Shown here piece by piece: positions 39,801 to 48,638 of a stretch of DNA of 64,000 nucleotides. Positions within the stretch are counted from its first letter, which is position 1. The number at the start of each line of letters is the position of its first letter. The DNA is from Octopus vulgaris. Its lineage: Eukaryota. A program made the translations under genes and the position numbers. The stretch covers positions 82,956,001-83,020,000 of the forward strand of contig OX597827.1 of assembly GCA_951406725.2 (NCBI GenBank). The letters are read 5' to 3'. Below the pieces are notes generated by a model that saw only the letters and a list, made by a program, of their open reading frames with translations, was not told the DNA's origin and made no database searches.

Positions 39801-42800
39801 TATCAAAGGCATATGATCAAATAGTTTCCAGATATGACTGTCCCACCTTTTTATTTTCAAATATTGTACTTCTAAGACTACAAATACCCCATGAGGAACT
39901 ATTTTTCAAAGAGTGTGATTTAAGGGGTTTTCAGTTTCTATTTGTAAAATGTTCATAATCATGGTCACTACATGGCTGGAAAGGCCAGTCGTGCAGTCCA
40001 AAACAGACTGACCATCTTCCTCTCTCTTGAGCCAGTCACCCACCTTTTCTCTCTCACCTCAATCCAACTGCTGCACCACTACTATAATGGTCAATTCTTT
40101 TATTTGGTGTCTGTCAATTTTTGGTCAACACAAGCAGACCAATGGATCAACCATTGAGTCACTGGTGGCAATAATGACAATGGAGGATGGAGAGTTGTGA
40201 TCCTCAGTGGGAGGATAAATACTAGAAGGGGTTTTCGCTTCACATACCAGTTTAACAGCAGCAGCCTTTTAACCCACACACACACACACACACACACACA
40301 CTCCACATGCTGATTGGTTTTGATAAAAGAGAATTCAAATTGTTGGCTCAGATGAACTTTGTGATCACTAAATTAGCATATAAGTAGTAGAGTACTGGAC
40401 AAACATCTGTACTCTAATGTAAAGCTCCTGGGCACAGCATGTGGCAACGTGGATCCTTTGAATTACAAGTTCAGCCCGTTCAATAGATTTAGCTAGTTCA
40501 AACCCCAGTCCACTTGACCACTCTATCCTTACCAATGACGATATCCTTTCATTCAAATTCCATCAGTTAAGGAGGCCATAACAGTTGCAGCCAGTCTCCC
40601 ACTTTGTCTTATCCAGTTATCAGCCAAATTAAGAATTTATCTTGGACCCTAATCAGTTCAGAATTTGGCACTACCTAGTGATGGTCCCTGTCTTCTCTCC
40701 CTTTTCAGGGTTCAGGTCAGTTTCTCAGTGACAGGTTCTTATACTCTCTCACAAGTAGTATTTTTAATCCTGCTTGGTGTCCACAAACCTTGCTCACCTT
40801 TTAAACTAAATGGAGGTCCATATCAGTTGCTAATTACGAAATGATCTCTACTGGGTTGCATGATACCACTAGCATAAAGTACCTGACCTGACACATGTAT
40901 TGAGTATTTGGTGACCAAACTGTCCTTACCTGGTATGTGTGTTGTCCATGTTGTCGAGCCCATACCAACAACACCATGCTGGTTGACAGCTGTCAAGTGT
41001 AGAGAGTACCTCATATTGTTGTCCAATTTCACTGGGAAAAGGGGACGACTGGTCTACAGGAAAAGTGAAACATTGATGGTCATAGAGAAGATACAGTTAG
41101 TGGAGAAGAGGAGTTATAATCTAGAAGACAGGCAGAGGCTGTAAAGTGTAGATATAGGGCACAATCAGTTATTGAGGGGTTAGGAATAGGGGACATCAGT
41201 TGGTGTAAGAACAGCTAAAAATAGGGAACAGACAGTTGGTGTGGGTTGAAAGATAGAAAAAGAGGACAAATATTTATTTCTTTATTGCCCACAGGGGGCT
41301 AAGCATAGAGGGGCAAACAAGGACAGACAAAGGGATTAAGTCAATTACATCGACTCAGTGCGTAACTGGTACTTATTTAATCGACCCTGAAAGGATGAAA
41401 GGCAGAGTTGACCTCGGCAGAATTTGAACTCAGAATGTAACAACAGACGAAATACCGCTAAGCATTTCACCTGGCATCCTCAGACTATTGTCATTTATTT
41501 CTGGATCAGACCTGATAAAAGACATTCCAACTATGACCACCATTTGTCAGAAACTCCTTTGTCCTCTGTGCCTTTCTCTTTATATGATAAAAAGCTATAA
41601 TTTGTGAGAGATTTCACAGCAATTCCACCCCCACCCAGCCCACTTTCTTTTAAATACTCCCCTGCCCTCACCAATCTTCACATCCAACAACTTCAAGTAT
41701 CCAGGATCTTATCCACTCCATTACCTATGTTTTTCCCTACAATTATTAAACCAATAGAATTTCAGATTCTTTTACCAACCGTTTCTGCTCTAATACGACA
41801 GGTCACACAGCAAAGGACATTTGGCTGGTATTTCTGACAGGTCGAAAGACTGTCTATAGATGTTCCCTTGATGTTTGTAACTAAAGTGTCTTTCCTCACT
41901 TGGGGCCACACAACAGACTCCCTGAGAACCCAAAAGGGCTATGAGCATTACCTTAAAAGAAAAGCTCTTCTTTACTTACATTTGCAACAATGTGCCATTT
42001 TTGGTCATCATTTTGTTTCACCGAGACCAGAACAACAACAGGTCCAGGGGAAGGCTGTTTGTGGCTGTAGGTGATATTCCAGTAAATGTAGTAGACAGAA
42101 TGAAGAAATAATTGGTCAGTCCACCACATGTCTTGTTTACAGATGATGTTCGGCCCAGTAAATTGAATGCCAGTGGAATGGTTCGCAGAAGACAAAGTTC
42201 CCACTTCTTAAAGAAAAGAAGTAAAAACAAAGAGAAATCAGTTGTAATTATGGATTTACTTAACGAGGCATAATTAATTATCCTCTCACACTCAGAGAGT
42301 CACTCAGCAAGACATGCAAAGTTGATTTCCTCACCCTGAATTCTGTCGTGGTTGTGGATCCATTCCCGCAAATACTGAATCAAAGCACATGTTTTACGGC
42401 ATTGCCGTGAAGGCTGAAACAAAGAGAAGAAACATAAGAAGGCCAGAGAGGGGGGGAGAGACAGACAAACAGACAGACAGTGTGTGTGTGCGGGACTTAG
42501 TGGTTAGGGTGTTCAGCTCATGACTGAAAAGTTGTCAGTTTGGTACCCAGGGGTACATTGTGTCCTTAAGCAAGATACTTAACATCACTCTGATCTAATC
42601 AGCTGGCAAAAATGTGTTGTGACTGTGATTCTAAAGGGGCCAGCCTCACCACATTCTGTGTCACACTGAATCTCCATGAGAACTACATTAAGGATGTACA
42701 TGTCTGTGGAGTACACAGCCACTTGCACATTAATTTCACTAGCAGCCTGTCTCATTAGTGGGATCAATTAGAATCCTCGTTATCATAACTGACAGGCTGC

Positions 42801-48638: not shown

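What the first reader, a model, noticed from the sequence alone, without database searches (positions are those of the whole stretch)
42335..48638. Torso-like RTK whose N-terminus looks like the anosmin-1 (KAL1) cysteine-rich box
Seen: exons 1-4 splice to [17 protein letters not shown]...[43 protein letters not shown], followed by three FN3-like repeats, a TM helix and a kinase. Recalled from memory: anosmin-1 begins VQRARCASRCLS...WCQNHKQCSKCLEPC...CQSFC...CLTSCEFLKYI, with near-identical Cys spacing (one Cys here is Ala), and anosmin also carries FN3 repeats. Inference: this receptor may preserve an ancestral Cys-box + FN3 ectodomain linking the secreted FGFR modulator anosmin with Torso-type receptors, without anosmin's WAP domain. 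Torso signalling is poorly characterised outside arthropods.
Basis: partly seen in the sequence, partly recalled or inferred. Interest (0 to 1): 0.7.

Follow-up and report, generated by a model that had tools for sequence, protein, structure and literature searches.

The report
Octopus Torso receptor shares anosmin's ectodomain
This is a spliced octopus gene for a Torso-family receptor kinase whose outer part matches the human Kallmann-syndrome protein anosmin-1 in sequence; its tip is predicted to fold like the cap of the ROS1/Sevenless receptors, so anosmin is likely a secreted offshoot of an ancient receptor.

Summary
Confirmed and extended. The coordinates are exons 1-4 of a 21-exon, 970-aa Octopus receptor tyrosine kinase, 99.3% identical to a public O. 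sinensis model. RNA contigs join most ectodomain exons. Its kinase falls in the Torso family. The N-terminal 10-Cys box (Cys5 is Ala here) was seen in 23 Torso-family proteins. A profile built only from these boxes found 28 proteins among 1.84 billion: 11 anosmins or anosmin-like, the rest Torso-type proteins or box-bearing fragments. Profile-profile probability is 98.8%, and Cys-fixed shuffles score lower. The likeness goes past the box: FN3-1 matches anosmin FN3-1 in register, and two intron positions match exactly in the octopus's own anosmin gene (a third is tentative). WAP is absent. Two Trunk-like ligand genes lie in the genome; predicted binding is weakly supported. Non-arthropod Torso is published; ten open-access searches found no anosmin-Torso-CATCH link. 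This scan earlier noted a sea-urchin Torso paralog, without anosmin.

The parts
48486..48638 (-). Exon 1: start codon, probable signal peptide, Cys-box helix 1 (C1, C2)
44642..44728 (-). Exon 2: Cys-box loop, C3, C4; ends directly before the C5 position; skipped in public isoform P0003
44133..44189 (-). Exon 3: C5 position (Ala), C6, C7, C8; skipped in public isoform P0005
42335..42413 (-). Exon 4: Cys-box helix 4 (C9, C10) and linker; no WAP domain
   Evidence: 79-nt gap in RNA contig
41980..42206 (-). Exon 5: first half of FN3-1; its 3' intron position is shared with the octopus anosmin gene
40930..41053 (-). Exon 6: second half of FN3-1; its 3' intron position is shared with the octopus anosmin gene
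39626..39724 (-). Exon 7: FN3-2, start
   Evidence: E7+E8 fill a 167-nt gap in the RNA contig
39427..39494 (-). Exon 8: FN3-2, middle
38002..38170 (-). Exon 9: FN3-2, end, with a conserved Cys pair in the linker
36404..36615 (-). Exon 10: FN3-3, first half
34522..34639 (-). Exon 11: FN3-3, second half
31432..31479 (-). Exon 12: extracellular juxtamembrane stalk
   Evidence: fits the 52-nt gap in the RNA contig
29614..29762 (-). Exon 13: transmembrane helix
28581..28782 (-). Exon 14: juxtamembrane region, kinase Gly loop and catalytic Lys
27666..27850 (-). Exon 15: kinase N-lobe
26844..26919 (-). Exon 16: short kinase insert
26193..26254 (-). Exon 17: kinase
25779..25993 (-). Exon 18: catalytic loop, DFG, activation loop
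24726..24863 (-). Exon 19: kinase C-lobe
22674..22853 (-). Exon 20: end of kinase, start of tail
21596..21860 (-). Exon 21: C-terminal tail to the stop codon

Best explanation
This is an intact, spliced octopus Torso-family receptor tyrosine kinase whose ectodomain (a 10-cysteine box plus three FN3 domains) matches anosmin-1 in sequence and likely shares its ancestry; it likely signals when a Trunk-type cystine-knot dimer pairs two receptors, with the box, predicted to fold like the ROS1/Sevenless CATCH domain, likely serving as a regulatory cap. Shown: gene structure, splicing of most ectodomain exons, kinase placement, profile matches to anosmin over the box and FN3-1/-2, two shared intron positions, no WAP, two Trunk-like genes in the genome. 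Predicted: four-helix fold and its likeness to CATCH. Inferred: ligand, dimerization mechanism (from insect Torso), the cap role (from ROS1), and that anosmin arose from such a receptor by losing TM and kinase and gaining WAP.
For: Pfam Cys_box PF17869 is matched by 10 of 23 Torso-family boxes, best E 4.9e-06; no other family by more than 2. The profile of those 23 boxes against 1.84e9 proteins gave 28 hits at E<=0.001: 11 are anosmins or anosmin-like (10 with WAP, one 145-aa fragment with Cys_box; 8 named in sources or from a named organism), E 4.4e-06 to 9.9e-04; the other 17 are Torso-type kinases, box+FN3 proteins or short box-only fragments. HHalign Torso box vs anosmin box 98.8%, E 5.9e-17; Cys-fixed shuffles reach the real score in 0 of 200 for 22 of 23 Torso boxes and 11 of 11 anosmin boxes. 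A profile of 6 ectodomain fragments has human anosmin-1 (1zlg_A) as best of 20 PDB hits, E 3.5e-16, colinear from box through FN3-2. Per domain, lophotrochozoan FN3-1 scores 69.9 on anosmin FN3-1 against 38.6, 30.8, 28.8 on FN3-2 to -4, and 64.7 on insect Torso FN3-1. Octopus anosmin gene on G000:C27 has introns at the same codon and phase in mid FN3-1 and at the FN3-1/2 border; a salmonid anosmin isoform lacks exactly the 16 aa before C5, where this gene has intron 2. AlphaFold2: pLDDT 88.6, four main helices. Best structural matches: Sevenless 9bfp_A 206-304 rank 1 of 48,161 (Z 7.1, rmsd 2.7, 78 aligned); Sevenless/ROS1 chains fill ranks 1-6 of 202 (Z 8.6 to 6.4); ROS1 is Foldseek rank 1. 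CATCH has 10 Cys paired 1-6, 2-5, 3-4, 7-10, 8-9 (10.1101/2024.03.13.584817, passages); cephalopod-type boxes lose C5 and Argonauta also loses C2, its predicted partner. Kinase trees: lophotrochozoan group 100/97, Torso family 97/96 without FGFR, RET, PDGFR. Trunk-like genes at G000:C23 and C24. Predicted complex with a Trunk dimer: weak support, 0.46 against best control 0.00; runs agree in at least 32% of contacts, partner pLDDT at least 69; the mark was reached by 51 of 78 solved complexes and 2 of 108 mismatches, but at 0.60 or under by only 5 of 78 solved and all 4 passing mismatches.
Against: The octopus protein alone does not hit PF17869 at E<=10 and finds no relative in the PDB or ESM Atlas; the box-only profile A1 found nothing in the PDB at E<=10, not even 1zlg. 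The anosmin set used for HHalign and shuffles was picked by the Torso profile itself. No sequence match to ROS1/Sevenless, even with a joint Torso+anosmin profile; Foldseek E 1.4 is not significant, and Z 7-8.6 is in the range the tool calls common for helical bundles (unrelated chains at Z 6.4). S-S distances were not available from the model. FN3-2 and FN3-3 do not map uniquely on anosmin (FN3-2: 73.9 and 70.4 on anosmin FN3-2 and -3; FN3-3 best on anosmin FN3-2). Of 6 introns compared, one is a codon off, two differ or are not comparable, and a phase-1 border intron is generic for FN3 domains. The octopus anosmin exon 2 was found by a search conditioned on the expected end; unconditioned it ranks 26 of 867 on the profile and its acceptor is top for 1 of 5 templates; the putative exon 3 runs into a stop and exon 1 was not found. 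One-to-one orthology with insect Torso is unresolved (polytomy). The complex score may reflect the solved insect PTTH-Torso complex (recalled). No functional data exist for the box.
Confidence: 0.72

Rival explanations
1. Domain shuffling only: the Cys box is a mobile N-terminal module joined independently to generic FN3 arrays in anosmin, Torso and ROS1, so anosmin does not descend from a receptor ectodomain.
For: FN3-2 and FN3-3 do not map one to one on anosmin; WAP and a fourth FN3 interrupt colinearity; ROS1 has another architecture behind its cap (PMC13100127, passages).
Against: FN3-1 matches anosmin FN3-1 as well as it matches insect Torso FN3-1; two FN3-1 introns coincide; the box is split over four exons and WAP shares an exon with helix 4 in octopus anosmin, unlike a shuffled cassette.
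Confidence: 0.15
2. The homology holds, but the box is itself a ligand- or co-receptor-binding site (for FGFR, heparan sulfate or a non-Trunk ligand), and loss of C5 in cephalopods leaves a free Cys that may link receptors.
For: The box is far better kept in lophotrochozoans than in the holometabolous insects tested; C2 is left without its predicted partner in Octopus; the CATCH hairpin was likened to the ligand ALKAL (PMC11743138, passages).
Against: Moth Torso works with an eroded box (function recalled); Trunk genes are present and weakly predicted to bind; Argonauta lost C2 as well, which suggests decay, not use.
Confidence: 0.1
3. Convergence: the likeness is a by-product of Cys-rich helical hairpins and has no common origin.
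For: The octopus sequence alone has no significant hit; C3a/C5a give Z 5-6 with the same model. This remains a fair reading for the ROS1 link (about 0.3).
Against: For anosmin: no hit from an unrelated named family among the 28 of 1.84e9, shuffles and reversed sequences fail, adjacent FN3-1 and introns agree.
Confidence: 0.03

Closest known systems
Torso receptor tyrosine kinases (insect PTTH/Trunk receptor; non-arthropod torso of PMC6660194)
   Same: Single-pass RTK with three FN3 domains matching insect Torso in register (64.7, 110.2, 82.6), short kinase insert, kinase in the same family clade.
   Different: Keeps a nearly full 10-Cys helical box, undetectable in the Bombyx, Tribolium and Chrysoperla proteins tested. 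Pfam has only FN3 models for Torso, and PMC11087794 describes Torso as having no ectodomain domain but FN3 (passages). Ligand untested.
Anosmin-1 (ANOS1/KAL1), Pfam Cys_box PF17869 + WAP + FN3
   Same: Signal peptide, then the same 10-Cys box, then FN3 domains; FN3-1 in register; shared introns.
   Different: No WAP, three not four FN3, has TM and kinase. The octopus has a separate true anosmin gene on G000:C27.
ROS1/Sevenless CATCH domain
   Same: N-terminal RTK domain of two helical hairpins with 10 Cys, followed by FN3; best structural match of the predicted box.
   Different: No detectable sequence match; no YWTD propellers here, so the surfaces CATCH caps in ROS1 are missing.

Membership tests
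Torso-family RTK | Single TM helix and intact tyrosine kinase | tested here: met
Torso-family RTK | Three FN3 domains matching insect Torso in order | tested here: met
   each domain's best insect match is its own number; whole ectodomain E 1.3e-41
Torso-family RTK | Kinase groups with insect Torso, apart from FGFR, RET, PDGFR | tested here: met
   99/98, 97/96; rows came only from the kinase search hits
Torso-family RTK | One-to-one orthology with insect Torso | tested here: inconclusive
   polytomy with a mollusc/nemertean paralog pair and a sponge protein; Cad96Ca, Tie, ROS1 not sampled
Torso-family RTK | Activation by a Trunk/PTTH cystine-knot dimer | tested here: inconclusive
   two Trunk-like genes; predicted complex weak, 0.46 vs best control 0.00
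Anosmin-1 | N-terminal 10-Cys box homologous to PF17869 | tested here: met
   family-level; window's own box 29.9 bits, 0 of 200 shuffles; 9 of 10 Cys
Anosmin-1 | Octopus protein reaches Pfam's curated cut-off for PF17869 | tested here: not met
   no hit at E<=10
Anosmin-1 | WAP domain after the box | tested here: not met
   none in P0001 or in 15 of 15 relatives scanned
Anosmin-1 | Secreted, without TM or kinase | tested here: not met
   TM and kinase are in the same open frame; RNA contig joins FN3 exons to the TM exon
CATCH domain (ROS1/Sevenless) | Two helical hairpins superposing on CATCH | tested here: inconclusive
   predicted model ranks CATCH first in three searches, but Z 7.1-8.6, rmsd 1.9-3.1 is middling for helical domains
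CATCH domain (ROS1/Sevenless) | Disulfides 1-6, 2-5, 3-4, 7-10, 8-9 | tested here: inconclusive
   same count and helix placement; one joint loss of C2 and C5; no S-S distances given
CATCH domain (ROS1/Sevenless) | Sequence similarity to ROS1/Sevenless N-termini | tested here: inconclusive
   no PDB hit but anosmin at E<=10; no invertebrate ROS1 sequences were at hand
CATCH domain (ROS1/Sevenless) | Clamps the ectodomain in an inhibited state | not testable with these tools
   needs a structure or deletion assay

The most novel reading that the evidence does not exclude
Anosmin-1's cysteine box, the N-terminus of Torso and the ROS1/Sevenless CATCH domain are one ancient domain family, and the Kallmann-syndrome protein is a secreted, WAP-bearing descendant of a Torso-type receptor ectodomain that may still bind cystine-knot growth factors as a decoy or co-receptor.
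Probability: 0.5. Interest if true: 0.82.

Novelty: new variant of a known kind. Interest (0 to 1): 0.68.

Why it matters
Anosmin-1's cysteine-rich region is described in the review read here simply as a CR region (PMC3580776), the CATCH domain as unique to ROS1/Sevenless (PMC11743138), and Torso as FN3-only (PMC11087794). Joining them gives a predicted fold and disulfide map for the anosmin box against which patient variants can be read, an origin for a human disease protein, and a testable idea: anosmin may bind cystine-knot ligands through surfaces inherited from a receptor. For invertebrate biology it defines the full-length ancestral-type Torso ectodomain and names a receptor and two candidate ligands in a cephalopod.

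Tried and rejected
Word-index protein searches with exon 10 and with the ectodomain found only the Octopus cluster; relatives came through the kinase. Single-sequence searches of the box in the PDB and ESM Atlas gave nothing usable. The box profile A1 found nothing in the PDB. A single-sequence fold of the full protein failed (pLDDT 34.6) and was not used, so the ectodomain has no model. PF17869 on the own genome gave 12 matches, none over the cut-off; the 8 read were chance readings with stops or in the wrong frame. No RNA holder was listed as on record; kinase exons have no RNA check. PF28407, precomputed for P0001, is not in the local Pfam; it is also on a fragment lacking the N-terminus (P0017), so it is not the box. 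Public names 'Mer', 'Tie-1', 'RET', 'TYRO3' for this clade are automatic and not supported by the trees. Octopus anosmin exon 1 was not found in 260 kb upstream of the candidate exon 2. The sponge protein P0067 has 10 Cys but its box does not clearly beat shuffles (2 and 33 of 200), so a pre-eumetazoan age is not claimed. A uniform-chance estimate for shared introns (0.002 for two, 2e-05 for three of six) is naive and used only as a guide. The 2015 Torso structure paper is not held. Supplements of bioRxiv preprints were not available and may hold CATCH comparisons.

Full report
1. The gene. The finding's interval holds exons 1-4 of a minus-strand gene. Twenty-one exons from 48638 to 21596, all GT-AG, give a 970-aa open frame. 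It is 99.3% identical over 970 aa to an O. sinensis model (P0006) and 93.8% to O. bimaculoides P0001, so the window is from an Octopus. RNA contigs from three runs of one sample join E1 to E2 and run from E3 to the TM exon with gaps equal to the missing small exons; the fourth run laid showed no spliced piece in the listed rows. The E2-E3 joint and the kinase exons have no direct RNA check. Layout: probable signal peptide, Cys box (aa 44-108), three FN3 domains, TM (about 483-519), kinase with intact motifs and a short insert, tail.

2. Family. The kinase search listed the best 120 of 2,282 hits, mostly molluscan 'torso-like' and insect Torso proteins. I built two trees from subsets (59 and 50 rows, chosen for taxon spread; multi-kinase and near-duplicate rows left out). 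The octopus kinase sits in a lophotrochozoan group (100/98; 100/97) inside a Torso-family clade (99/98; 97/96) that excludes the FGFR, RET and PDGFR rows. Inside that clade the order of arthropod Torso, the lophotrochozoan group, a mollusc/nemertean paralog pair and a sponge protein is unresolved, and Cad96Ca, Tie and ROS1 were not sampled. The ectodomain agrees: each FN3 domain matches its own number in insect Torso best. Torso outside arthropods is published (PMC6660194, passages and supplement hits); 'octopus' occurs once in the supplement file that holds their receptor list, for a Trunk ligand.

3. The Cys box. N-termini of the relatives show a 10-Cys pattern; 19 of 23 aligned boxes have all ten. 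Octopus and an unnamed relative (P0130) have Ala at C5; Argonauta lacks C2 as well. The octopus sequence alone hits nothing, but 10 of 23 members hit Pfam's anosmin Cys_box, best E 4.9e-06. The Torso-only profile, run on 1.84 billion proteins, returned 28 hits. Eleven are anosmins or anosmin-like, from nemertean, brachiopod, nematodes, starfish, lamprey, frog, salmon and three records without an organism name; the rest are Torso-type kinases (including tick, bryozoan, annelid), box+FN3 proteins (including a coral fragment) or short box-only fragments. HHalign gives 98.8%, E 5.9e-17, and Cys-fixed shuffles or reversed sequences do not reach the real scores (one cockroach box had 1 of 200). The anosmin set there was selected by the Torso profile, so the Pfam and PDB results are the independent ones. 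The window's own box scores 29.9 bits on the anosmin-only profile, 0 of 200 shuffles. Beetle, lacewing and moth Torso give no signal, which explains why work on model insects missed the domain.

4. Beyond the box. A profile from six ectodomain fragments ranks human anosmin-1 first in the PDB (E 3.5e-16), colinear through FN3-2 with the WAP region as an insertion. FN3-1 pairs specifically with anosmin FN3-1; FN3-2 and -3 match several anosmin repeats, which resemble each other. The genome has its own anosmin gene on G000:C27. Its introns fall at the same codon and phase as this gene's in mid FN3-1 and at the FN3-1/2 border, and one codon off between C8 and C9. An intron directly before C5 is suggested by a candidate octopus anosmin exon and a strong acceptor, both tentative, and independently by a salmonid isoform lacking the 16 aa before C5. 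In octopus anosmin, WAP lies in the exon that carries helix 4, which fits insertion into an existing exon (inference).

5. Fold. AlphaFold2 on the 23-row alignment gives pLDDT 88.6 with long helices 2-25, 49-59, 65-71, 75-94 and a short one in the loop. The Sevenless N-terminal domain is rank 1 of 48,161 chains (Z 7.1), chicken ROS1 rank 7 (Z 6.0), C3a rank 10; Sevenless and ROS1 chains take ranks 1-6 in the second look (Z up to 8.6); Foldseek's best row is ROS1 at a non-significant E 1.4. That domain is CATCH: two disulfide-stapled hairpins with 10 Cys paired 1-6, 2-5, 3-4, 7-10, 8-9 (10.1101/2024.03.13.584817 and PMC11743138, passages). The Z values are middling and no sequence match was found, so I put homology with CATCH at about 0.7; what lifts it is that the top match is the N-terminal 10-Cys domain of another RTK, followed by FN3.

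6. Mechanism. Shown: an intact receptor kinase and two Trunk-like genes; the C23 gene's knot is letter for letter the O. vulgaris PTTH/Trunk entry of PMC6660194's supplement. Inferred: a cleaved Trunk dimer binds the FN3 domains and pairs two receptors, as for insect Torso (ligand-mediated dimerization is cited for Torso in PMC13100127; cleavage in PMC6303783); downstream Ras/ERK signalling is recalled. The predicted complex is weak (0.46 vs best control 0.00; contacts agree at least 32%, partner pLDDT at least 69; such scores were reached by 5 of 78 solved complexes and all 4 passing mismatches; a like insect complex is solved, recalled). In ROS1 the CATCH-FN3-FN3 arm holds a bent, proposed auto-inhibited state released by ligand (PMC13100127, passages); by analogy the box likely packs on FN3-1 and restrains or tunes the receptor. 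The propellers that CATCH caps in ROS1 are absent here, so this step is the weakest.

7. Novelty. Ten searches of the open-access library (listings only unless cited above) found no paper linking anosmin with Torso or CATCH: anosmin+torso gave 1 unrelated paper, and the 4 CATCH papers listed hold 'anosmin' 0 times. Subscription papers, domain databases newer than the local Pfam and preprint supplements were not seen. The scan's earlier notes hold one sea-urchin Torso paralog and no mention of anosmin. The gene is a member of a known family and is not an anosmin; the unrecognised shared ectodomain is the finding. Direction is inferred: box-bearing kinases and a coral box+FN fragment are widespread, while all organism-named anosmin hits were bilaterian, which favours a receptor origin.

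8. Verdict. Observation confirmed, interpretation supported and extended. Interest 0.68; new variant of a known kind.

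Noticed in passing
window 9037-9366 (+): Open frame with a PAN domain above Pfam's cut-off (E 4.8e-07); probably an exon of a neighbouring plus-strand gene.
   Followed up: partly
window 44133-44728 (-); P0003, P0005, P0007, P0163: Cys-box exons are phase-0 cassettes: public Octopus isoforms skip exon 2 or exon 3 or use an upstream exon-3 acceptor, and a salmonid anosmin isoform skips the matching segment. 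Such forms would break the box; RNA support not checked.
   Followed up: partly
window 44190-44393: RNA contig X2 record 5 carries about 200 nt of intron 2 in front of exon 3: partly spliced RNA or an alternative 5' end.
   Followed up: no
window 22670-22674 (-): Reading through the exon-20 donor meets a stop at once, which would give an 883-aa form without the tail; no evidence that it is made.
   Followed up: no
P0002: A deposited O. vulgaris model of this gene lacks exon 1 (signal peptide, helix 1) and includes intronic frames.
   Followed up: yes
G000:C27 3.77-4.09 Mb (L009, L010, L019-L078): Octopus anosmin gene with very long introns; the putative exon 3 near 3902246 runs into a stop after 12 codons (assembly error, decoy or damage unknown).
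   Followed up: partly
L085 (G000:C23), L081 (G000:C24), L079, L080: Two single-frame Trunk-like genes (40% identical in the knot) and two noggin-family genes.
   Followed up: partly
P0062, P0063, P0067, P0034, P0042: A second box-bearing RTK lineage in abalone and nemertean with altered second hairpin, a sponge RTK with 10 Cys, and oyster-type paralogs with a 4-Cys shortened box.
   Followed up: partly
window about 10091-11143 (-), 18038-19300 (+), 59143-59739 (+): Broken reverse-transcriptase-like retroelement remnants by eye (the last has no Pfam hit), and many short interspersed repeats in the introns.
   Followed up: no
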